Source of the DNA: a virus
Length of the DNA stretch: 64,000 nucleotides
Virus record (IMG/VR): IMGVR_UViG_3300045747_000454
Span: 52,034 to 116,033 of that record
Reading direction: 5' to 3' (one strand)
Shown here: positions 11,282 through 50,907 of the stretch, piece by piece
How positions within the stretch are numbered: the first letter of the stretch is position 1
Layout: each line of letters opens with the position of its first letter
The notes under the pieces: model-generated
Databases searched by the model: none
Told to the model about the DNA's origin: nothing
The model's input: the letters and a program-made list of their open reading frames with translations, nothing else
Translations under genes and position numbers: made by a program

Positions 11282-12349
11282 ATGGCGAAGATTCACACCG
11301 CCCGGGTTAGGGGCGAGATCACCAAGCTGGCGATGTTCACGGACATTCACTGGGGCGCTCGCAACAACTCTGACCAGCACAACCTCGACAACCTCGACTA
11401 CATCGATTGGTTCATCGAGCGCGCCAAGGAGGAGAAGCCGAGCCACATCGCCTTTCTCGGCGACTGGTTCGAGAATCGCAACGCCATCAACGTGCGCACG
11501 CTGAACCACGCCACTGAGGGTGCTCGCCGTCTGAACGCGCTCGGCATTCCAATCATCTTCATCGTCGGCAATCACGATCTGTACCATCGGTCGAATCGCA
11601 AGATCTTCAGCACGAACATGTTCGACGATCTTGAGAACTTCACCGTCATCAGCGAGCCAACTCGCCTGTCCAAGGACTGGTTCGTCGCACCGTTTCTGTT
11701 TCGTGACGAGTACCCAACCTTCACCGAGGATCTGAACAACTCGAAGTTCGTGCTTGGTCACTTCGAGTTTCGCAACTTCGTCGTGACGGGTGCGACGCGC
11801 GTGATGGAGCACGGACCAGACGCTGAGCTGTTCTCAGGTCCCAAGTACATCTTCTCTGGGCACTTTCACAAGCGGCAGCACAATCGCAACATCGTCTACA
11901 TCGGCAACACGTTCCCGACGAACTACGGCGATGCTGGCGACAATCAGCGTGGCTGCGCTGTGTTCGACGTCGAGAACGATGACGTCTACTTTCACGACTG
12001 GGAGGGTGCACCGCTGTTCTTCAAGACAAAGCTGACGCACATTCTCGCCGGTGAGGTGGAGTGGGCGCCGAAGTCGCGCGTGCGCTGCACGCTTGACATG
12101 GACATCGGCTACAGCGACGTGCAAGCGCTGAAGGAGGAGATGATCAAGACCTACGAGCTGCGCGAGTTCTCGGTAGAAGAGGACATCATCGCTCGCAAGG
12201 GACTGCTCAGCGAGGGTCTCGAGCTCGACACTGAGCTCGACATGTCGTCGCTCGATAGCACGGTTCGACAGCTCATCAATGAGGGCGTCGCACCATCACC
12301 AACCATCGACCCGCAAGTGCTGGTCAAACTGTATGAGGAGCTAGGATGA
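11282..12349 (+). CDS. recombination endonuclease subunit, gp47/Mre11/SbcD-like
   Basis: Metallophosphoesterase motifs DIHWG, LGDWF, GNHD, GHF, SGHFH. Confidence 0.95.
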   Translation: MAKIHTARVRGEITKLAMFTDIHWGARNNSDQHNLDNLDYIDWFIERAKEEKPSHIAFLGDWFENRNAINVRTLNHATEGARRLNALGIPIIFIVGNHDLYHRSNRKIFSTNMFDDLENFTVISEPTRLSKDWFVAPFLFRDEYPTFTEDLNNSKFVLGHFEFRNFVVTGATRVMEHGPDAELFSGPKYIFSGHFHKRQHNRNIVYIGNTFPTNYGDAGDNQRGCAVFDVENDDVYFHDWEGAPLFFKTKLTHILAGEVEWAPKSRVRCTLDMDIGYSDVQALKEEMIKTYELREFSVEEDIIARKGLLSEGLELDTELDMSSLDSTVRQLINEGVAPSPTIDPQVLVKLYEELG

Positions 12350-12540
12350 TTCGCTCACGCCAACCAAAGGTCGACCTCACGATCAAGAATCCAATCGAGC
12401 AGGCCGTCGTTGACCTGACCTGGGACACTTCACCGAGCCTGTCTATTTCGATCGGTCAGCTCATGTGGAATGATGAGCTTCAGAGCTTTCACATCTGGAT
12501 CGGCGACAAGTGGGTGCAGGTCTCTGGACACTCGCTGTGA
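12346..12540 (+). CDS. small hypothetical protein (single G-x-L-x-W-N...W-x-G-x-x-W repeat)
   Basis: ATGA overlap with gp47; 64 aa. Confidence 0.6.
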   Translation: MIRSRQPKVDLTIKNPIEQAVVDLTWDTSPSLSISIGQLMWNDELQSFHIWIGDKWVQVSGHSL

Positions 12541-12683
12541 GATTCGACACGGTCTTCTTCATGACGCTCGGCAATCGGTGGTTCACGCTGACGCTGAGCG
12601 TCTCGCGAGCGTGGCGCTCATTGTTTCTGACTCGTGAGCAGAAGCGCCTACAAACCATCGCCGGCATTCGGAACAAACAATGA
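12537..12683 (+). CDS. small hypothetical protein, 48 aa (not in ORF track)
   Basis: GTG..TGA ORF MRFDTVFFMTLGNRWFTLTLSVSRAWRSLFLTREQKRLQTIAGIRNKQ; fills the gap with 4-nt overlaps at both ends. Confidence 0.6.
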   Translation: MRFDTVFFMTLGNRWFTLTLSVSRAWRSLFLTREQKRLQTIAGIRNKQ

Positions 12684-14419
12684 CCTCAACGCTCAAGTTC
12701 AAAACCATCTCGATCAAGAACTTCATGTCGATGGGCAACAGCCCGTCGGAGATTGATCTTGACGAGCAGGGCACCGTCACCATCACTGGCGAGAACATCG
12801 ACCGTGGTGGCAGCAACGGCGCTGGCAAGACGACGATCATCAACGCCCTGTGCTACGCCATCTATAACAAGGCGTTCGACAACATCACGCTGCAGCGCCT
12901 GATCAACACGACCAACGCGACGAAGAACACGCAGATGGAAGTTCGGCTGACGTTCGAGAAGGACGGCTTCGACTACGAGGTCTTCCGTGCTCGTGGCTCC
13001 GAGTACAAGATCGAGATTCTGCGCGACGGCGAGGACATCACGCCGGGCAAGGGTGCGATCGAGTGCGACGCGCTGCTCGTCGACATCATCGGCATCAGCT
13101 ACGAACTCTTCACCAAGACGATCATCTTCTCTGGCAACTCGCCAGCCTTTCTGCAGCTGCCGCTGTTCCAGCAGCGCAATCAGATCGAGGAGCTGTTCAA
13201 CATCACGATGCTGTCCGAGAAGGCAACGCTGCTGAAGGAGCAGATCAAGACAACCGAAGGCGACATTAAGGTCGCTGAGGCGGTGATCAAGCAGCAGGAG
13301 GGTGCCGTTGAGCTGCATCGCAAGCACGTCGCCGAGGCGCACGCGCGAGTCGAGCGATTCGAGCGCAATCGCGTTGACACGATTCAGGAGATTGAGGACA
13401 CGCTGCAGATCGTTGGCAAGGTTGACTTCGACCTTGAGAAGGCGCTGCACGCCGAGCGCAGCTCACTCAAGCAAGAGGGCGCCTATCTCGCCGCCAAGCT
13501 TGCTCCGCTCCGCAAGGACAAGACGCAGCTCGAGAAGGATGTGAACAAGTTGATCGCCGAGCACGAGCATCTCGCCGACGCGCGCTGCCCGTACTGCACG
13601 CAGACGTTCCCAGATGCGCCAGTGAAGCTCGCCAAGGTCGACGCTGACATCACCACGAAGGGCGACAAGCTGCTCGAGGTCGAGACGAGCGTCGAAGCGC
13701 TGACCACCGACTCGACCGAGAAGCAGCGTCGACTGAAGGAGGTCGAGACGCTCATTCAGTATCAGGAGCTCGATGAGCTGCTCGAAGCTCGTGACAACGC
13801 CACTCAGCTGCGCAAGAAGGCGGACGAGCTGCGCACTGCCGTGAACCCACACGTTGAGGCGCACGAGAAGCTGGCTGCCGAGAAGACCGGCACCGTCGAC
13901 TATCTGAAGGCCGACGGTCTGCGTCGCAAGCTCGACCATCAGCAGTTCCTGCTGAAGCTGCTCACGGACAAGAACTCGTTCCTGCGTCGTCGCATCATCA
14001 ATCGCTCGATTCCATTCCTCAACAACAGGTTGAACCACTTCACCAACGCGCTGGGTCTGCCACACATCGTCAAGTTCGATGCCGACATGTCCTGCACCGT
14101 AGCCGAGTTCGGTCGAGAGCTCGACTTCGGCAACCTGTCCGCTGGCGAGAAGAAGCGCCTGAACACGGCGATGGCGCTCGCCTTCCGTGACGTGCTGCAT
14201 CATCTGCACGCCAAGACGAACCTGCTGATGATTGACGAGCTCGACGGCGCTCTGGATCAAGAGGGCATCGACAGCATCGTGCGCATTTTGAAGGAGAAGA
14301 GTCGTGATGAGGAGCTGTCCGTCTTCGTCATCTCACACCACCCAAGCATCGCTGGGCGGTTAGATCACAATCTCATTGTCCGTAAGGAGTCTGGGTTCAG
14401 CTTCGTAGTACTGGAGTGA
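12680..14419 (+). CDS. recombination ATPase subunit, gp46/Rad50/SbcC-like
   Basis: Walker A GSNGAGKTT, coiled coil with CPYC zinc hook, LSAGE signature, Walker B LLMIDE, ISH. Confidence 0.95.
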   Translation: MTSTLKFKTISIKNFMSMGNSPSEIDLDEQGTVTITGENIDRGGSNGAGKTTIINALCYAIYNKAFDNITLQRLINTTNATKNTQMEVRLTFEKDGFDYEVFRARGSEYKIEILRDGEDITPGKGAIECDALLVDIIGISYELFTKTIIFSGNSPAFLQLPLFQQRNQIEELFNITMLSEKATLLKEQIKTTEGDIKVAEAVIKQQEGAVELHRKHVAEAHARVERFERNRVDTIQEIEDTLQIVGKVDFDLEKALHAERSSLKQEGAYLAAKLAPLRKDKTQLEKDVNKLIAEHEHLADARCPYCTQTFPDAPVKLAKVDADITTKGDKLLEVETSVEALTTDSTEKQRRLKEVETLIQYQELDELLEARDNATQLRKKADELRTAVNPHVEAHEKLAAEKTGTVDYLKADGLRRKLDHQQFLLKLLTDKNSFLRRRIINRSIPFLNNRLNHFTNALGLPHIVKFDADMSCTVAEFGRELDFGNLSAGEKKRLNTAMALAFRDVLHHLHAKTNLLMIDELDGALDQEGIDSIVRILKEKSRDEELSVFVISHHPSIAGRLDHNLIVRKESGFSFVVLE

Positions 14420-17818: not shown

Positions 17819-17856
17819 CGCGCACATTTAATAGCATTAGTTGCCAAATAAGGAAT
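17819..17856 (+). repeat. 38-nt AT-rich dispersed element, copy 1
   Basis: cgcgcacatttaatagcattagttgccaaataaggaat; 36/38 identical to the reverse complement of 47040-47077. Confidence 0.9.
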
Positions 17857-17876
17857 GGGACCGCTCGGTCCCATTC
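17853..17876. terminator. hairpin between convergent operons
   Basis: GAATGGGACC-gctc-GGTCCCATTC; pyrimidine-rich tail on the minus strand. Confidence 0.7.
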
Positions 17877-17879
17877 GGG

Positions 17880-18104
17880 TCAGTACACCGGATACGGACT
17901 CTTCTTCTGACCCTCAAGCCGCTCGTTCACGAATTGAATCGCGATGTCGCGCTCCAACGGCGACATGTTCAGCGCCGTCTCGTACTGAATCGAACCACGA
18001 GAGAACCAAGCGATCTCCACCGCTTGCTTGAGCAGATTACGAACGTCAACACCCATTGAGTTGATCATGGCGGCGATTCTGCTCGTATCGCCTGACATGA
18101 TCAT
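17880..18104 (-). CDS. baseplate hub assembly protein, gp51-like (possibly also the -1 frameshift extension of the upstream gene)
   Basis: ALNMSPLERDIAIQFVNERLE resembles gp51-like/tail-chaperone C-terminal domains; ATGA overlap at 18101-18104. Confidence 0.7.
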   Translation of the reverse strand: MIMSGDTSRIAAMINSMGVDVRNLLKQAVEIAWFSRGSIQYETALNMSPLERDIAIQFVNERLEGQKKSPYPVY

Positions 18105-18877
18105 TCGGTGAAAAAAGAGATTGGGTTTAGCGGCAGCTCGACGGTCATGTCGCCGCCGCAGTCCTTGCACACGAGCGTTGTCGTCTGCGCCGGACCCCAG
18201 TCGTTCGTCCGATCAATCGCTTCGGTGATGCGATTGTGAAACGGCCCAGACGCAGCCCGAACCCACTCTTCGATCAGCTTCTTATCGCTGATGCCGTCGA
18301 TGTCGCTGATGATAGAGGTCAAGTTGAACACAAGGTTCTTCTTGAGATCATCTGGCGTAAAGTCGGTCTTGTTGGCGTTCAGATGGAACAGCTTGATCAT
18401 GTGATCGAATTTGATCGGGTGAACTCGAACGACCTGCCCGTTCGGCATCACGGCGATGAACTTCTCATCCGCCACCGTCGGGTCGAGAGTCTTCATGTTC
18501 TGAATCGCCGTCTCGATGTTGACCAGGTACGAGTGCTCCTTGGCGCCCTCGCAGGTGTGCGTCACGCTGATCGCGAACTCAGGACCGTAGGTCACCAACC
18601 GCAGAAAGTACATGATGGCGTCGATGTCACGCCCATACAGCTCGGTCGGCTTCTTGATCTCTGGGATGCACTCGGCAAACACGGCTTCGATTGCCTTGCC
18701 GTTGAACAGCAGATCAGGATTCTTCAGCGTGATCTCAGCGATCGCCGACAGTGGGTGAACGTGAACCTCGCCCTCAGTGCTTGACAGCTCACCGCTGGTG
18801 TAGAGAGCGCCGGCGGATGGCAGCTGAAAGGTTCGACCGGGCAGCTTGAGCTTTGCGAGCAGGGGATTGACTTCCAT
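18101..18877 (-). CDS. baseplate hub assembly chaperone, gp26-like
   Basis: QLPSAG.LY...LKNPDLLFNG...DIDAIM..LR..TYG, C-terminal CKDC, ends ..ISFFTE; GGAG RBS before ATG 18877. Confidence 0.8.
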   Translation of the reverse strand: MEVNPLLAKLKLPGRTFQLPSAGALYTSGELSSTEGEVHVHPLSAIAEITLKNPDLLFNGKAIEAVFAECIPEIKKPTELYGRDIDAIMYFLRLVTYGPEFAISVTHTCEGAKEHSYLVNIETAIQNMKTLDPTVADEKFIAVMPNGQVVRVHPIKFDHMIKLFHLNANKTDFTPDDLKKNLVFNLTSIISDIDGISDKKLIEEWVRAASGPFHNRITEAIDRTNDWGPAQTTTLVCKDCGGDMTVELPLNPISFFTE

Positions 18878-18894
18878 TGGAACTCCAGGTTGGA

Positions 18895-18917
18895 TAAATA
18901 GCCTATGCCAGTATTTA
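18895..18917. promoter_or_regulatory. face-to-face pair of late promoters
   Basis: TAAATA (+) at 18895-18900 and TATTTA (-) at 18912-18917, 11 nt apart, between divergent genes. Confidence 0.7.
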
Positions 18918-18939
18918 TCGTCTTCGAACCGACACAAAA

Positions 18940-21897
18940 ATGACCAACTCAGAACTAGAACAGTTCTCGACTGCTATCGTCAATGCTATCAAGAAGTCTG
19001 GGCTTGCCGCTTAGGCGCCCCCCAAGCGGCAAGCCACTACTGAAGACCGCAAGGAGCAAGCCGAAAAGAAGCGTGGTGCTGGTGTCATCTTCTCGACGAC
19101 TACTTCGATCAAGAGCCTTGGGGCAACGGCTGACCTAGCCGCAGGTGCGCTTCGTGATCTTTCAAAGACCGCGCTGCGATCCATCATTGGCCTGTCTCAA
19201 TTCACCTCAGCGCTTGAGGACTCTTCAAAGAGGACAACGACTAAGGGCAGAATCGCTGGTCGGGTCGCGGCGAAGCCGGCCAAAGTATCGGCGGATGCTG
19301 CCATTGCACGTGCAATGGCATCACTCAAAGACCAGGAGCGTGCCGAAGAGCGTGAACGCAACGGGCGTGAGAGTCAGCGCATTTTGGCTGAACAAGCCAG
19401 AGCGCGAAAGGAAAAGGCTCGCCAAGACCGTGTTCAGAAGGCTCGCGTCACGCCAACTGGAAAGCCAGAGCGTTCAGAATTTGTCGGGCCAATCAAGCCA
19501 GAAGAAATCATTGATACCTCTGACAAGCTCAAGCCCATCGATCTCATCGACACAAAGAAGCAGCTTGAGTGGAAGACTGGTCCAGAGTTCATCATGGACA
19601 AATACCTTAAGCCGATTGCTGTCGACATCGACAAAAAGCTTAAGGCACGAACAGCAGCATTTGCGAAGTTCGAGGGAGATGAGGATCTAGCCAATGCTCG
19701 GCGTCGCGATGCAATTGATCACAACGTCCTGCAAATTGGCGCCTTCGCGACCAAGTCGATGGGCATTCTTTGGCGCACAACGCTTGATTCACTGAACATT
19801 ATGTTTGGCACGCTTGCACAGCGTGGCTACGGTACATCAGACTCATTCAGCACTCTTGCCGTGAACTCAGCACGCGCTGGCATGAGCATTCAAGAGTACA
19901 CAGAGATGATGGACAGCAGCATGGCTGTTGTCTCGCGCTCGTCAAGCTTCGCTGACTTCGACAGTAAGCTGAAAGTTGGAACTAACGCGCTGAAGGAGTT
20001 CGGCATTGCCGGACCAGAGGCGACCAAGGCCGTTGCTAGCTTGATGACATCATCGACGCAGCTTGGCATTCCACAGGACCAGCTGAAGGAGAGTATTGAA
20101 GCTCAGATGACGGCGTTCAGACAGCTGCAGAAGACTACTGGCATTACGATCACGGACTTCGCTCGACTGTCTGCCGAGGTTAGCTCGTATGAGTCGGTTC
20201 AGACGGAGCTTGCCGCCCTTGATCCGGCGCAGCGTGATGCTCGTCGTGCTGCGCTGACTCAGCAGTACGCGTACGCCAAGTCGCTTAACATCTCAGAGCG
20301 CGCTCAAGCTAGCTTCACACAAGCCATCATTGAGCAGCGCCGCTCAACAGTCAAGACTCGCTACAATCAAGCTGGTCGTCTGATGCAAGCCGGCGGTATG
20401 GTTGGCATGGGTGCTGATCAGATCGAAGAGATGCGTAAGCTCTCGCTCAATCGTTACAAGAGCGATGATGAGCAGAAGCGCTACATGGATTTACTTGGCA
20501 AGCTCGGCACTGGCATGGAGCAGGTTCAGCAGCAAGGTGGTCCAGGCTCGCAGTACCAGATGGACACAATGAAGGAGCTGCTTGACTCGAACGGCATGAC
20601 CTCGGCAATGGACGCCGCCATGGCTATCAAGCTTGGCAAGGAATCTGGAAAGACTGGCAATGCCGACATGTCGCGCAGCGTTAGCGAGCTCGATAAGAAT
20701 CTGTCTGGCTTGTTCACGTGGGTAAAGGGTTGGGGTGCTAACCCCATTGGCGCAGCTGCCATCTCTATAACGTCTGCTTTCGTCGCTCTCGCATCGTCAA
20801 TCAAATTCGGCCTCATTGAAGTGGCGCCGATGCTCGGCACGATAATTGGCGACAGAGCTGGAACAATCATTGCGCGAATGATGTCTGGGACGGCGCATGG
20901 CTTTGGGTCAGACTCTAAAAATCCTATCCCGTCTGATACTGGCTCAGACCCTACAAAGCCAAAGATGAGCAAGTGGGTCAAGGGTGCTGCTATTGCTGGC
21001 GGCGTTCTTGAAGCCGGCATGGCAGGCTATGGGGCCTACAGCACCTACTCAGACATGAACAAGAAGGAAGCTGAGGAGGGTGGTCCGACCAAGGAGACGA
21101 AGGAGAAGAAGGCTGAGGCTGTAGGCAATGGCGTGCTTGGTGGGCTTGGTGGTGTAGCTCTGGCAATAGCACCATTCCTCGGGCCGGCAGCGCCATTCGT
21201 AGCTGGATTCGGACTTGTCGCCTCAGCGCTCAATATGTTTGGCGCAGGCGGCGCCGTTGGCAAGCTGTTCGTCAGTAATGAGACGGCCGTCGAGAAGAAC
21301 ACTCGCGAGACAAACAAGCTGACCAAGGAGATGAACGAGGCTCGTGCGGCTCAAGCGAATGACGATAATGTCATGGACGCTTCAGCGCTGGCTGGGTTGC
21401 CAACTAGTGCAGTCAGAGCCGGCATTGCAGGTTCAATCGCTTCAGCAGATGAGGTTGCCAAGGCGCGACCAGTCGATCCTGCCGTCATAGCTCAGAACCT
21501 CAAGGACACACAAGACAATGTAAGCGAGATGCTGGAGGCGCAGGCTCGAGTCGATGCCGCGGCGGCCTATGGAAAGCCAACCAAGACAACGCCAACGTCG
21601 ATTGCCGGCTCATCTATCGCTCTGCCAACGAGCGTAGCACCAAATCGCGTCAATCCTACGACCGTAAATACAGCTACGGACGAGGCGGCAGAACGGAAGA
21701 CATCACAACTGCCAGCAGTGCTGAAGCGCGATGCTGTTGATCAGGTGGCGATTCTGCAGAAGCAGACTGACATTATGCAGCAGCACACAGATCTTATGCA
21801 GAAGAGCATTGATGCGACGAATGATCTTACTCGCACTCTTGCAACACGCTCAACTCAGCCAAGCACTGAAAACCTCTACCGTCGAGCTACTGGCTAA
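18940..21897 (+). CDS. probable tape-measure protein; frame starts at ATG 18940 and contains one in-frame TAG (19012-19014)
   Basis: The track ORF 19315..21897 is long, helical and Ala-rich with Gly-rich hydrophobic segments; 100 sense codons without ATG/GTG/TTG precede it in frame back to the TAG, then 24 codons to an ATG just after a late promoter. Confidence 0.65.
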
Positions 21898-21919: not shown

Positions 21920-23608
21920 TTGAGCACACTATCAAACTACTGGCGAATCATCACTCCGGCATCGCGCAAGCAGATGTACACGACGCTCGCCACCGACGCG
22001 TACGACCCGAGAACGACTGACGTCTCGTCGCTCTCGTCCGTGCAGTGGTACTCACAGGTTCTGCGTGGTCCTGGATCGCGCTCGCAGATGTACAAGCAGT
22101 ACGACGCGATGGACGGCGACATTGACATCTGCCGCAGCCTCGACATCATCGCCGAGGAAATGTCAGGCAAGAACGACAAGACCGACCTGCCCTTCGAGAT
22201 CAGCTACGAGAAGGAGGACAATCAAGATGTCTCCGACTCTACGGCAGTCACGCTCCGTCAGGCAGTTCGTCAGTGGTCAGAGCTGCAGGATTTGAAGCGT
22301 CGCATCTACACGATTGGTCGAACGATGATCAAGTACGGCGACTGCTTCTTTCAGAAGATGTCTGACACGAAGAAATGGAAGTACATCGACCCGTCGCTCG
22401 TCTACGGTATCGAGGTCAACGAGTTCGGCGACAAGATTGCCTATCACGTAAAGCGTCCGCACGCCGGCATGGGCAGCCCATTCGCTCCTCGTCAGGAGCA
22501 GCTCGACGTGATTCCGGCTGACGCCATGATTCACTTCACGATGTGCGACGACATGGGCGACTCCGCTCCGTTCGGTCAGTCGGTCCTTCGTCCAGTCTTT
22601 CGTGTCTATCGTCAGCTGGCGATGATCGAGGACGCCGTCATCATCTACCGTATCGTTCGCGCTCCAGAGCGCCGCGTCTTCTACGTCGACACCGGCAACA
22701 TGCCACCACAGCGCGTCAAGCTGTACCTCGAGCAGATCAAGAACGAGATTCGTCAGAAGCGCTCGCCAACCTCGAATCAAGGCGGCAAGGACACCGTTGA
22801 CGGTGCCTACGACCCGATGTCGATTCAGGAGGACATGTTCTTCCCTGTCAACGCTGCTGGTCGTAGCTCACGCGTTGAAACTCTGCCAGGCGGCACCGAA
22901 GACTTCGGCACGAACCTGCTCAAGTACTTTCAGGACAAGGTTTTCCGTGGTCTGCGCATTCCAACCTCCTACATGTCAGGCGGCGACGGGCAGGGCGCTC
23001 AGTACAACGACGGCAAGGTCGGCATCGCGTACATCGAAGAAATGCGCTTCGCCAACTTCGTCATGCGTCTTCAGGATCGTCTTGAGGAGCACTTTGACAG
23101 CGAGTTTAAGACCTATCTGAAGGTCGTCGGTCTGAAGATCGACGAGGAGATCTTCAAGCTCAAGCTGCCTGATCCATCTAACTTTGCGCTGTATCGTCAG
23201 GCTGCGCTCGACGCCGACCTGATTGGCTCGTTCAACAACATCGAAGCGACGAAGTATCTGTCGCGTCGCTTCATTCTCAAGCGCTACCTTGGTCTTAACG
23301 ACGACGAGATTCAGATGAACGAGGTCATGATCAAGGAAGAGCGTGGCATCACCGAAGCATCAGACATTCCGTCCATTCAGCAGATCTATGACCCAACGGT
23401 CTACGAGAACCGTGAGAGCCGGACCGTTGATGCTGGTGAGGGTGAAATCGCTGGTGGTCTGGGCGGCGAGGAGGACATTGGCATGGAGCCAGGCGGCTTC
23501 ATGCCTGACCCAATGGCAGGCGGCGATCTAGGTGCTGAAGAACCATTGGCTCCTGAAGCTCCAGCCCCAGCAGGCGGCGCGGAACCGGCCGCAGAACCAG
23601 CGGTTTAA
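21920..23608 (+). CDS. portal vertex protein, T4 gp20-like
   Basis: EDAVIIYRIVRAPERRVFYVDTGNMP, EDMFFP, VETLPGG, LRIP.S. Confidence 0.96.
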   Translation: MSTLSNYWRIITPASRKQMYTTLATDAYDPRTTDVSSLSSVQWYSQVLRGPGSRSQMYKQYDAMDGDIDICRSLDIIAEEMSGKNDKTDLPFEISYEKEDNQDVSDSTAVTLRQAVRQWSELQDLKRRIYTIGRTMIKYGDCFFQKMSDTKKWKYIDPSLVYGIEVNEFGDKIAYHVKRPHAGMGSPFAPRQEQLDVIPADAMIHFTMCDDMGDSAPFGQSVLRPVFRVYRQLAMIEDAVIIYRIVRAPERRVFYVDTGNMPPQRVKLYLEQIKNEIRQKRSPTSNQGGKDTVDGAYDPMSIQEDMFFPVNAAGRSSRVETLPGGTEDFGTNLLKYFQDKVFRGLRIPTSYMSGGDGQGAQYNDGKVGIAYIEEMRFANFVMRLQDRLEEHFDSEFKTYLKVVGLKIDEEIFKLKLPDPSNFALYRQAALDADLIGSFNNIEATKYLSRRFILKRYLGLNDDEIQMNEVMIKEERGITEASDIPSIQQIYDPTVYENRESRTVDAGEGEIAGGLGGEEDIGMEPGGFMPDPMAGGDLGAEEPLAPEAPAPAGGAEPAAEPAV

Positions 23609-25133: not shown

Positions 25134-25169
25134 GCGGCGGAAAATCAGCGAGATTTCCGCCGCATTTTT
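25134..25169 (+). terminator. Rho-independent terminator
   Basis: GCGGCGGAAAATC..GATTTCCGCCGC followed by ATTTTT; the next TAAATA is at 25182-25187. Confidence 0.7.
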
Positions 25170-46998: not shown

Positions 46999-47024
46999 CA
47001 ATGGGAGTCGACTAACTCCCATTG
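46999..47024. terminator. hairpin between convergent operons
   Basis: CAATGGGAGT-cgacta-ACTCCCATTG. Confidence 0.7.
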
Positions 47025-50885: not shown

Positions 50886-50907
50886 AACGGGACCCTAGGG
50901 TCCCGTT
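50886..50907. terminator. perfect 22-bp palindrome/hairpin after the tube gene
   Basis: AACGGGACCCTAGGGTCCCGTT. Confidence 0.65.

What the first reader, a model, noticed from the sequence alone, without database searches (positions are those of the whole stretch)
18940..19314. In-frame amber codon inside a strong hairpin at the start of the probable tape-measure gene
Seen in sequence: ATG 18940, just after a late promoter, reads MTNSELEQFSTAIVNAIKKSGLAA, then TAG (19012-19014), then 100 open codons with no ATG/GTG/TTG that run in frame into the 860-aa ORF. The TAG lies in a hairpin with a perfect 12-bp stem: GGCTTGCCGCTT (19001-19012) pairs with AAGCGGCAAGCC (19024-19035). The A of TAG faces C19023 and is followed by two more G-C pairs, so TGG would give a perfect 15-bp stem. 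Established: a hairpin-embedded UAG is the architecture of T4 gene 60 bypassing, and an A-C mismatch in UAG is the hepatitis delta virus amber/W editing geometry. The codon before the stop is GCT, and the next GCT downstream (19078-19080) is in frame. Inference: programmed readthrough, bypassing or editing limits the amount of this low-copy protein. A sequencing error or a recent TGG-to-TAG mutation is a real alternative.
Basis: partly seen in the sequence, partly recalled or inferred. Interest (0 to 1): 0.8.

Follow-up and report, generated by a model that had tools for sequence, protein, structure and literature searches.

The report
Amber stop inside phage tail gene
A giant phage's tape-measure-like tail gene is truly interrupted by one UAG stop at codon 25, inside a strong hairpin; no relative shares the stop, and it is most likely either read through by a phage amber-suppressor tRNA, as the cultured relatives carry, or a plain G-to-A change or error.

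Summary
ATG 18940 is followed by 24 codons and TAG 19012-14. Then come 100 codons with no ATG/GTG/TTG, running into the 860-codon ORF. The stop sits in a perfect 12-bp hairpin, 14 of 15 bp with an A-C mismatch at the stop.

Homology shows one 985-codon gene. Both sides of the TAG align with the continuous N-termini of the family. All 16 aligned proteins and 6 DNA loci lack the stop, and the 6 loci lack the hairpin, so this is not a conserved recoding signal.

The phage uses the standard code. TAG ends 7 of 125 genes, and no other gene on the 116-kb contig is interrupted. The contig holds no tRNA but is only about 32% complete.

It is a RsoM2USA-like jumbo phage. All three cultured relatives carry tRNA(CUA), and two have a PTH2-type gene with TAG at codon 3.

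- Best reading (0.42): a lineage-specific amber read by a phage suppressor tRNA.
- Rivals: consensus error or dead allele (0.30); a hairpin-driven hop, bypass or readthrough (0.12); start at 19315 (0.08).

T4 gene 60 and HDV editing are not supported. The hairpin's role is unexplained. Earlier scan notes reported amber-gated PTH2 genes in other jumbo phages, but not this tail-gene case.

The parts
18893..18900 (+). Late-promoter-like GATAAATA upstream of the gene. A second copy lies on the minus strand at 18919-18912 and faces the divergent baseplate gene.
   Evidence: Motif census: ATAAATA occurs 26 times in 116 kb and is often 29-61 nt before starts. Relatives carry GTATTTAC at a similar distance before their ATG.
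18940..19011 (+). True start codon and first 24 codons of the tail gene (a conserved N-terminal helix, MTNSELEQFSTAIVNAIKKSGLAA).
   Evidence: 11 of 24 residues are identical, ungapped from residue 1, to the N-terminus of the closest homologue P0003. The family motif is seen in 16 homologues. The coding score is best in this frame.
19012..19014 (+). In-frame TAG at codon 25, in the variable linker of the family.
   Evidence: Homologues have sense codons through this linker.
19001..19035 (+). Hairpin with a 12-bp perfect stem and 11-nt loop. It can also be read as a 15-bp stem with one A-C mismatch at the middle base of TAG and a 5-nt loop.
   Evidence: There is no counterpart in six relatives, whose best stems in the first 240 nt are 4-8 bp. 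There are no matches elsewhere in public viral or metagenome contigs.
19015..19314 (+). 100 codons after the stop with no canonical start. This is the coding continuation: linker, then the conserved block around IFSTTTSIKSLG..AAGALRDLSK.
   Evidence: Collinear matches to P0003 (1-114 vs 1-130, E 7e-7), P0010, P0001, P0008 and P0005. The frame-1 coding score is 0.15, against -0.64 and -0.67 in the other frames.
19299..19320 (+). 9-bp perfect palindrome (TGCCATTGC acgt GCAATGGCA) that contains ATG 19315, the gene callers' start.
   Evidence: There is no Shine-Dalgarno sequence upstream, and homologues have no conserved Met here.
19315..21897 (+). Rest of the gene (the 860-codon ORF as called), with the conserved core domain and Gly-rich hydrophobic C-terminal half. 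It is tape-measure-like.
   Evidence: 201 homologues at E <= 1e-3, mostly 800-1150 aa. The family profile hits PDB 9ki1_g 'probable tape measure protein' at E 4e-8, and some members hit PHROG tape-measure families. It is syntenic with the 851-, 918- and 1009-aa ORFs next to the portal gene in RsoM2USA, XacN1 and RAS14.
18101..18877 (-). Divergently transcribed T4-type baseplate protein gene.
   Evidence: PHROG 150 'baseplate hub' at E 1.4e-7. Pfam T4_baseplate at 24.5 bits, exactly at the cut-off.
21920..23608 (+). T4-type portal gene immediately downstream.
   Evidence: Pfam Portal_T4 at E 3e-89. It is 52% identical to the Ralstonia phage RsoM2USA portal.

Best explanation
18940-21897 is one 985-codon gene for a tape-measure-like tail protein. 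Codon 25 is a UAG that only this lineage has, and it lies in a poorly conserved linker. The full-length protein is made because the UAG is read as a sense codon. The most probable reader is a phage-encoded tRNA(CUA) lying in the roughly two thirds of the genome that the contig lacks. In such a phage a TGG-to-TAG change is tolerated, and it may also delay or lower synthesis of this low-copy protein. Such a change could arise by a G-to-A transition or by a flip of the hairpin loop. Shown: gene continuity, uniqueness of the stop, the standard code, and suppressor tRNAs plus amber-interrupted genes in the cultured relatives. Inferred: that this phage has such a tRNA, that it reads this UAG, and any regulatory benefit. 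The hairpin's contribution is unknown.
For: Continuity: both flanks of the TAG align collinearly with continuous N-termini of the family. Six relatives' DNA shows the same promoter-to-ATG layout and no stop. ATG 19315 is a poor start: it has no SD, sits inside a 9-bp palindrome, and has no conserved Met in homologues. The contig is otherwise clean, with 94% coding density, tight gene overlaps and no other interrupted gene. That argues against a sloppy consensus. Clade: 53 contig ORFs have RsoM2USA homologues, and the portal is 52% identical. RsoM2USA, XacN1 and RAS14 all carry well-formed tRNA(CUA) genes. PMC8504454 reports the RsoM2USA one. RsoM2USA and RAS14 each have a PTH2-type gene that starts SD-ATG-NNN-TAG, and the RsoM2USA one is unannotated in GenBank. 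So UAG is decoded in this clade. TAG is the rarest terminator, ending 7 of 125 genes. RsoM2USA's tRNA block at 45-112 kb has essentially no counterpart in the contig, which maps to 224-327 kb. Absence of tRNAs on the contig is therefore expected. This fits the model in bioRxiv 10.1101/2021.08.26.457843, where rare stops plus a suppressor tRNA let in-frame stops arise in structural genes.
Against: No tRNA(CUA) has been seen for this phage. No other in-frame TAG exists on 116 kb. None was found deep inside conserved genes of the three cultured relatives. The stop is not conserved in any of the 22 homologues examined. Suppression does not explain why the stop sits in the second-strongest hairpin of the contig, at its only mismatch. 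Under this reading that is a coincidence of roughly 1 in 100 to 1 in 1000. The known amber-gated genes of the relatives have TAG at codon 3 followed by A, whereas here it is at codon 25 followed by G.
Confidence: 0.42

Rival explanations
1. Artefact or dead allele. The real, functional sequence has TGG (Trp) at codon 25. The A at 19013 is then a consensus or assembly error, or a non-viable variant captured in a low-coverage metagenome assembly.
For: A single A-to-G change both restores the ORF and turns the 12-bp stem into a perfect 15-bp stem. That is what one substitution in a perfect palindrome would look like. The stop is unique among 22 homologues. This is a single metagenomic contig with no second copy of this region anywhere. 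Inverted repeats are known trouble spots for polymerases and sequencers (my own knowledge, not tested here).
Against: The rest of the contig shows no frameshifts or other broken genes, so the consensus error rate is low. A lethal allele should not be the majority base in a 116-kb assembly. The two extra pairs beyond the mismatch would arise by chance about 1 time in 10.
Confidence: 0.3
2. Hairpin-dependent recoding without a suppressor tRNA. Three variants are possible. One is low-level near-cognate readthrough. The second is a +6 hop of peptidyl-tRNA-Ala from GCU (19009-11) over UAG to GCG (19015-17). The third is a gene 60-like bypass to GCU at 19078-80. In each, the stem helps the ribosome escape RF1.
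For: A stop placed exactly in a very rare, strong hairpin is hard to ascribe to chance. The codons flanking the UAG are both Ala codons readable by one tRNA-Ala(UGC) (sequence; decoding rule from my own knowledge). An identical GCU lies 66 nt downstream in frame. A tape measure is needed in only a few copies per virion, so about 1% efficiency could suffice (inference).
Against: Neither the hairpin nor the stop is conserved in any relative. With UAG in the A site, the 5' arm (-8 to +4 relative to the P-site codon) is inside the ribosome, so the stem is melted. No stable structure lies downstream of the stop (z = +1.1). The 24-aa nascent chain is simply the family's ordinary N-terminus, not a dedicated signal, whereas gene 60 needs one (PMC5462505). 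AAGGAG at 19051-56 is not placed before any landing or start codon.
Confidence: 0.12
3. The functional protein starts at ATG 19315 (860 aa). On this reading 18940-19314 is a recently inactivated, dispensable N-terminal remnant.
For: Gene callers chose this ORF (P0151). A few family members are called with short N-termini, such as P0054, P0068 and P0117.
Against: The upstream 125 codons are still homologous to the family N-terminus and score as coding in frame. ATG 19315 has no SD and is buried in a 9-bp palindrome. No homologue has a conserved Met there. The promoter-like motif sits in front of 18940, not 19315. With the upstream part included, the core domain starts at residue 289, against 298 in RsoM2USA gp376.
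Confidence: 0.08
4. A-to-I RNA editing of the UAG to UIG (read as Trp) at the A-C mismatch, as at the hepatitis delta virus amber/W site.
For: The geometry matches: the A of UAG is opposite C in a long GC-rich stem.
Against: No ADAR-type or CDA/TadA-type deaminase is found on the contig (the ADAR model also found nothing in the control genomes, so that search is uninformative). ADARs are not known in bacteria or phages. To my knowledge the only bacterial mRNA editor, TadA, needs a UACG tRNA-Arg-like loop, and here the context is UAGG within a stem.
Confidence: 0.02

Closest known systems
In-frame amber codons read by phage-encoded suppressor tRNAs (TAG-recoded 'code 15' phages; model in bioRxiv 10.1101/2021.08.26.457843), and the amber-gated PTH2 genes of standard-code jumbo phages
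   Same: A late or structural phage gene carries an in-frame TAG. TAG is the rarest terminator. All three cultured relatives tested carry tRNA(CUA), and RsoM2USA and RAS14 have genes that begin ATG-NNN-TAG.
   Different: Only one TAG in 116 kb rather than many. It is at codon 25 rather than codon 3. No relative keeps it. No suppressor tRNA has been seen for this phage. GC is 57% rather than low. The stop is embedded in a hairpin, which is not a feature of those systems.
T4 gene 60 translational bypassing
   Same: UAG immediately follows a codon that recurs downstream in frame (GCU...GCU, 66 nt apart). The take-off codon and the stop lie in the 5' arm near the top of a hairpin. It is a T4-related phage.
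   Different: There is no dedicated nascent-peptide signal. The stem lies mostly 5' of the P-site codon rather than forming a compact A-site hairpin. There is no SD-like element before the landing codon. The 'gap' is an open frame that aligns with the linker of homologues. There is no conservation and no mobile-element context (PMC5462505).
Stop-hopping (+6 tRNA hop over a stop between synonymous codons; described in E. coli test constructs, from my own knowledge)
   Same: GCU-UAG-GCG places two codons readable by one tRNA-Ala on either side of the stop.
   Different: Hops are known as low-efficiency events in artificial constructs, not as a natural way to express a phage structural gene. This was not tested here.
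HDV amber/W editing site
   Same: The A of UAG faces C within a long stem.
   Different: It needs a host ADAR. None exists in bacteria and none is on this contig.
Small hairpin-loop inversions and quasi-palindrome mutations (known from chloroplast and bacterial genomes; from my own knowledge)
   Same: Flipping the 11-nt loop between the 12-bp arms turns TAG GCG CCC CCC into TGG GGG GCG CCT, which is open (W G A P). The hairpin itself could therefore have generated the stop, or could revert it, in one step.
   Different: This is purely a sequence-level possibility. No second allele has been observed.

Membership tests
T4 gene 60-type bypass | Identical take-off and landing codons flanking the skipped stretch, with a stop right after take-off | tested here: met
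   GCT at 19009-11, TAG at 19012-14, and the next GCT in any frame at 19078-80, in frame.
T4 gene 60-type bypass | Dedicated nascent-peptide signal in the exit tunnel | tested here: not met
   The 24-aa leader is the ordinary N-terminus shared by 16 homologues that have no stop. Gene 60 needs a specific 46-aa chain (PMC5462505).
T4 gene 60-type bypass | Compact hairpin that can form in the A site from nucleotides 3' of the take-off codon | tested here: not met
   The 5' arm spans -8 to +4 around the P-site codon. Only two G-C pairs (19014-15 with 19021-22) could form 3' of it.
T4 gene 60-type bypass | Element conserved among carriers | tested here: not met
   Six DNA loci and 16 proteins of the family show no stop, and the six DNA loci show no comparable hairpin. 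There are no other copies of the hairpin in public contigs.
Structure-stimulated stop-codon readthrough (MuLV or luteovirus type) | Stable structure starting a few nucleotides 3' of the stop | tested here: not met
   19015-19134 folds no better than shuffles (z = +1.1). The only strong stem contains the stop itself.
ADAR or TadA A-to-I editing site | A matching deaminase and its recognition motif | tested here: not met
   PF00383 and PF02137 are absent from the contig (the contig is partial, and the PF02137 search matched none of the control genomes, so it is uninformative). The context is UAGG, not the UACG loop.
Suppressor-tRNA-dependent in-frame amber (phage stop-codon recoding or amber gating) | In-frame TAG in a gene whose two sides match one continuous protein in relatives | tested here: met
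Suppressor-tRNA-dependent in-frame amber (phage stop-codon recoding or amber gating) | Phage-encoded tRNA with a CUA anticodon | not testable with these tools
   There is none on the 116-kb contig, but the contig is about 32% complete and does not cover the tRNA block of RsoM2USA. It is present in 3 of 3 cultured relatives.
Suppressor-tRNA-dependent in-frame amber (phage stop-codon recoding or amber gating) | TAG depleted as a terminator | tested here: met
   TAG ends 7 of 125 genes. It is also the rarest stop in RsoM2USA, XacN1 and RAS14.
Suppressor-tRNA-dependent in-frame amber (phage stop-codon recoding or amber gating) | The in-frame TAG recurs in other genes or in relatives | tested here: not met
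   It is the only case on the contig and is absent from all homologues. Relatives have in-frame TAG only at codon 3 of PTH2-type genes.
Tail tape measure protein | Sequence or profile similarity to known tape measures, and tail-module position | tested here: inconclusive
   The family profile hits PDB 9ki1_g 'probable tape measure protein' at E 4e-8, but only over 64 Gly-rich residues. Single family members each hit one of three PHROG tape-measure families, and 6 of 10 hit 'tail associated lysin'. The window protein itself has no Pfam or PHROG hit. It lies between a baseplate gene and the portal gene.

The most novel reading that the evidence does not exclude
The hairpin and the UAG form one device. 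One version is a structure that tunes the race between RF1 and a suppressor tRNA, or drives an Ala-to-Ala hop, to set the dose or timing of the tape measure. The other is a quasi-palindrome whose 11-nt loop flips between TAG (off) and TGG (on), giving a heritable on/off switch for tail assembly in a jumbo phage.
Probability: 0.1. Interest if true: 0.8.

Novelty: new member of a known kind. Interest (0 to 1): 0.45.

Why it matters
If the TAG is real, this would be a structural gene of a standard-code, GC-rich jumbo phage that depends on reading UAG. That would extend the known targets of the puzzling suppressor tRNAs of RsoM2USA/XacN1-type phages beyond small PTH2-type genes. It would also be a candidate snapshot of the first step toward stop-codon recoding of late genes, as proposed for gut phages. 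Practically, the gene is mis-called in databases as an 860-aa protein that lacks its conserved N-terminus. The amber-gated PTH2 gene of RsoM2USA is likewise missing from its GenBank annotation. If the TAG is an error, the finding is ordinary.

Tried and rejected
- **Genome-wide TAG reassignment: rejected.** TAG-bridged long frames are not in excess. TAG ends real genes that are followed by junk or by separate genes.
- **Other interrupted genes on the contig: none real.**
  - The candidate at window 226 is most likely an antisense shadow, judged from the translation only.
  - DnaB-like + TAG + 105 codons is a separate small gene with its own SD and ATG.
  - The 347-aa gene's extension is junk.
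  - The gp47/gp46 'split' is two normal genes that happen to be fused in XacN1.
- **Close relatives that could show the allele at 19013: none found.**
  - Phage GenBank by DNA and by protein gave nothing.
  - IMG/VR by protein gave nothing.
  - The 5.8-billion-protein search gave one hit at 46%.
  - Cluster look-up gave only the window's own protein and a 292-aa C-terminal fragment.
  - Two metagenome scans and one IMG/VR scan with hairpin or leader patterns gave 0 hits.
- **The look-up of encoding contigs was closed.** The DNA of P0003 and of the short-N-terminus family members could therefore not be inspected.
- **First cross-genome tblastn screen for in-frame stops:** it was swamped by antisense or conserved-DNA artefacts. 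The stricter screen found none, and its one XacN1 candidate was a promoter region.
- **tRNAs in five IMG/VR relatives' contigs:** none, but these are 3-43% fragments.
- **Other checks:**
  - An intrinsic terminator is rejected, because no U-tract follows the stem.
  - Rfam gave no match.
  - A -1 frameshift on C CCC CCA in the loop was considered. It is rejected because it would discard the conserved frame-1 N-terminus.
  - Re-initiation after the stop is rejected. AAGGAG at 19051-56 is not followed by any start codon.
Full report
**What is there**

- ATG 18940 opens a frame of 24 codons (MTNSELEQFSTAIVNAIKKSGLAA), followed by TAG at 19012-14. The same frame then stays open to 21897.
- The first ATG/GTG/TTG after the TAG is ATG 19315, so 100 codons have no canonical start.
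- The stop lies in a hairpin. Positions 19001-12 pair perfectly with 19024-35. The A of TAG faces C19023, and two more G-C pairs follow. The fold is -28.4 kcal/mol, z = -3.2.
- In the whole 116-kb contig only two perfect stems of 12 bp or more with short loops exist, against none in shuffled sequence. The hairpin is therefore not a chance feature.
- A GATAAATA motif sits at 18893-18900. ATAAATA occurs 26 times in the contig against about 5 expected from base composition (my estimate), often 29-61 nt before gene starts. 'Late-promoter-like' is a fair description.

**Context**

- The window is the last 64 kb of a 116-kb IMG/VR contig that CheckV rates about 32% complete. GC is 57%.
- It carries T4-type portal, prohead protease, major capsid and baseplate genes.
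- The nearest cultured phage is the 344-kb Ralstonia jumbo phage RsoM2USA, with 52% portal identity. 53 contig ORFs have homologues there, mapping to 224-327 kb. Next come XacN1 and Stenotrophomonas phage RAS14.
- In all three, an 851-, 918- or 1009-aa ORF lies just upstream of the portal gene, as here. In RsoM2USA, as here, the divergent upstream neighbour matches the window's baseplate gene. In XacN1 that neighbour is annotated as a late sigma factor.
- The RsoM2USA ORF is a distant homologue, 22% identical over the core domain.

**Is it one gene?**

Yes.
- A full HMMER search found 201 homologues at E <= 1e-3, mostly 800-1150 aa.
- The first 125 residues, read through the TAG, align collinearly with the N-termini of the closest homologues. 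P0003 matches 1-114 against 1-130 at E 7e-7. P0010, P0001, P0008 and P0005 match with nearly equal offsets.
- The 24-residue leader matches the first 24 residues of P0003 at 11 positions without gaps. It carries the family's N-terminal motif.
- In the alignment the TAG falls in a variable Gly/Ser/Arg-rich linker. That linker lies between the N-terminal helix and the next conserved block.
- Codon-usage scores pick frame 1 on both sides of the stop. The 100 post-stop codons score low for a coding stretch, 0.15 against a 5th percentile of 0.19.
- ATG 19315 has no Shine-Dalgarno sequence and is buried in a 9-bp palindrome. It has no conserved Met counterpart in homologues.
- The database protein of 860 aa (P0151) is therefore a gene-caller truncation.

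**Is the stop or the hairpin conserved?**

No.
- The 16 aligned homologous proteins and the six IMG/VR loci whose DNA I could read have continuous N-termini. Those loci share the layout of a promoter-like motif followed by ATG.
- Their best stems in the first 240 nt are 4-8 bp, against 12 bp here.
- No closer relative exists in any collection I could reach.
- All relatives are 46% identical or less. Conservation within the immediate lineage is therefore untested.

**Genetic code**

The code is standard.
- TAG terminates 7 of 125 called genes, and what follows those stops is junk or a separate gene.
- TAG-bridged long frames are not in excess.
- No other gene on the contig is interrupted.
- Coding density is 94% with tidy gene overlaps. 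The consensus is therefore of good quality.

**The clade reads UAG**

- The RsoM2USA paper reports 44 tRNAs including a CUA suppressor (PMC8504454). I confirmed it with Infernal and ARAGORN.
- I found the same in XacN1, with two tandem copies, and in RAS14, with one CUA plus one UUA tRNA. All are well-formed type-I tRNAs with encoded CCA ends.
- Earlier notes of this scan said that standard-code jumbo phages pair such tRNAs with PTH2-type genes that have an amber codon just after the start. I tested that claim in two of these relatives.
  - RsoM2USA has AAAGGAG-N7-ATG TTG TAG ATT.., followed by a PTH2 domain and no other start for 108 codons.
  - RAS14 has ATG AAG TAG ACC.., followed by weak, sub-threshold HD and PTH2 matches.
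  - The RsoM2USA gene lies in an unannotated gap of the GenBank record.
- A cross-genome screen found no in-frame TAG deep inside conserved genes of the three phages.
- The tRNA block of RsoM2USA (45-112 kb) has essentially no counterpart on the contig. The absence of tRNAs on the contig is therefore uninformative.

**Mechanism**

*Best reading (0.42).* A lineage-specific amber is read by a phage suppressor tRNA.
- In such a phage a TGG-to-TAG change in a tolerant linker is viable, and may even be useful as a dose or timing gate for a low-copy protein.
- This fits the published model that rare stops plus a suppressor tRNA let in-frame stops appear in structural genes (bioRxiv 10.1101/2021.08.26.457843).
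- The weak points are these:
  - No tRNA(CUA) has been seen for this phage.
  - The TAG is the only one of its kind.
  - The hairpin coincidence is left unexplained.

*Main rival (0.30).* An error or a dead allele.
- One A-to-G change restores both the ORF and a perfect 15-bp stem.
- Against it, the contig is otherwise clean.
- The two extra pairs beyond the mismatch are only weakly significant.

*Hairpin-driven recoding (0.12).*
- The flanking codons GCU-UAG-GCG would permit a +6 hop by one tRNA-Ala. An identical GCU lies 66 nt downstream.
- With UAG in the A site the 5' arm is inside the ribosome, so the stem is melted.
- Nothing stable lies downstream of the stop.
- The nascent chain is the ordinary family N-terminus.
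- The defining gene 60 features are not met (PMC5462505).

*Internal start at 19315 (0.08) and A-to-I editing (0.02).* Both are unlikely.

*A possible link between hairpin and stop.* This link needs no programme. Inverting the 11-nt loop between the arms converts TGG GGG GCG CCT (W G A P) into TAG GCG CCC CCC. The palindrome itself could thus create or revert the stop. This is an idea only.

**Function of the protein**

Tape-measure-like is reasonable but not proven.
- The family profile hits PDB 9ki1_g 'probable tape measure protein' at E 4e-8, over a Gly-rich segment.
- Single family members each hit one of three PHROG tape-measure families, and 6 of 10 hit 'tail associated lysin'.
- The window protein itself has no Pfam or PHROG hit.

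**Verdict**

- The feature is a real, unique amber codon in a real gene. It is not a conserved recoding element.
- The clade context makes natural suppression plausible.
- Only reads, a complete genome or proteomics can separate suppression from error.

Noticed in passing
L045:8850-9218 (-), which is MG752970.1 68850-69218: RsoM2USA has an unannotated PTH2-family gene that starts AAAGGAG-N7-ATG TTG TAG ATT. There is no other start codon for 108 codons. It lies in a gap between annotated ORFs 92 and 93. It is a likely target of the phage's tRNA(CUA).
   Followed up: yes
L091:8314-9171 (-), which is OP752703.1 88314-89171: RAS14 has a 286-codon ORF with weak, sub-threshold HD and PTH2 Pfam matches. 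It starts AAGGAA-N6-ATG AAG TAG ACC.
   Followed up: partly
MG752970.1 55744-55821; AP018399.1 36047-36205 (repeated at 354842-355000); OP752703.1 306328-306403 and 302428-302502: All three cultured relatives carry tRNA(CUA) genes. XacN1 has two in tandem. RAS14 also has a tRNA with a UUA (ochre-reading) anticodon. Their bodies resemble Thr, Val or Lys-type tRNAs, and the amino-acid identity is unknown.
   Followed up: partly
window 19299-19320: A 9-bp perfect palindrome around CACGTG contains ATG 19315, the start chosen by gene callers.
   Followed up: no
window 19024-19035 and 19051-19062: The 3' arm AAGCGGCAAGCC recurs 27 nt later as AAGGAGCAAGCC (KRQA / KEQA). This offers the 5' arm a second, 10-of-12 pairing partner, and it contains a perfect SD core.
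   Followed up: no
whole contig, e.g. window 17853-17876, 46999-47024, 50886-50907, 25134-25163: There are 23 perfect stem hits of 10 bp or more, against about 1 expected. Several sit just after gene ends. Most of these have no U-tract, which suggests this phage's terminators or RNA-processing sites are U-less hairpins.
   Followed up: no
window 11282-14419: The gp47-like (SbcD) and gp46-like (SbcC) genes are separate here, with a 330-nt spacer (12350-12679) that holds a small ORF. In XacN1 they are fused into one 1099-aa protein (ORF305).
   Followed up: partly
window 18905-18943: A 12-codon mini-ORF (ATG 18905 to TGA 18941-43) overlaps the gene's start as ATGA. It probably begins at or before the transcription start.
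   Followed up: no
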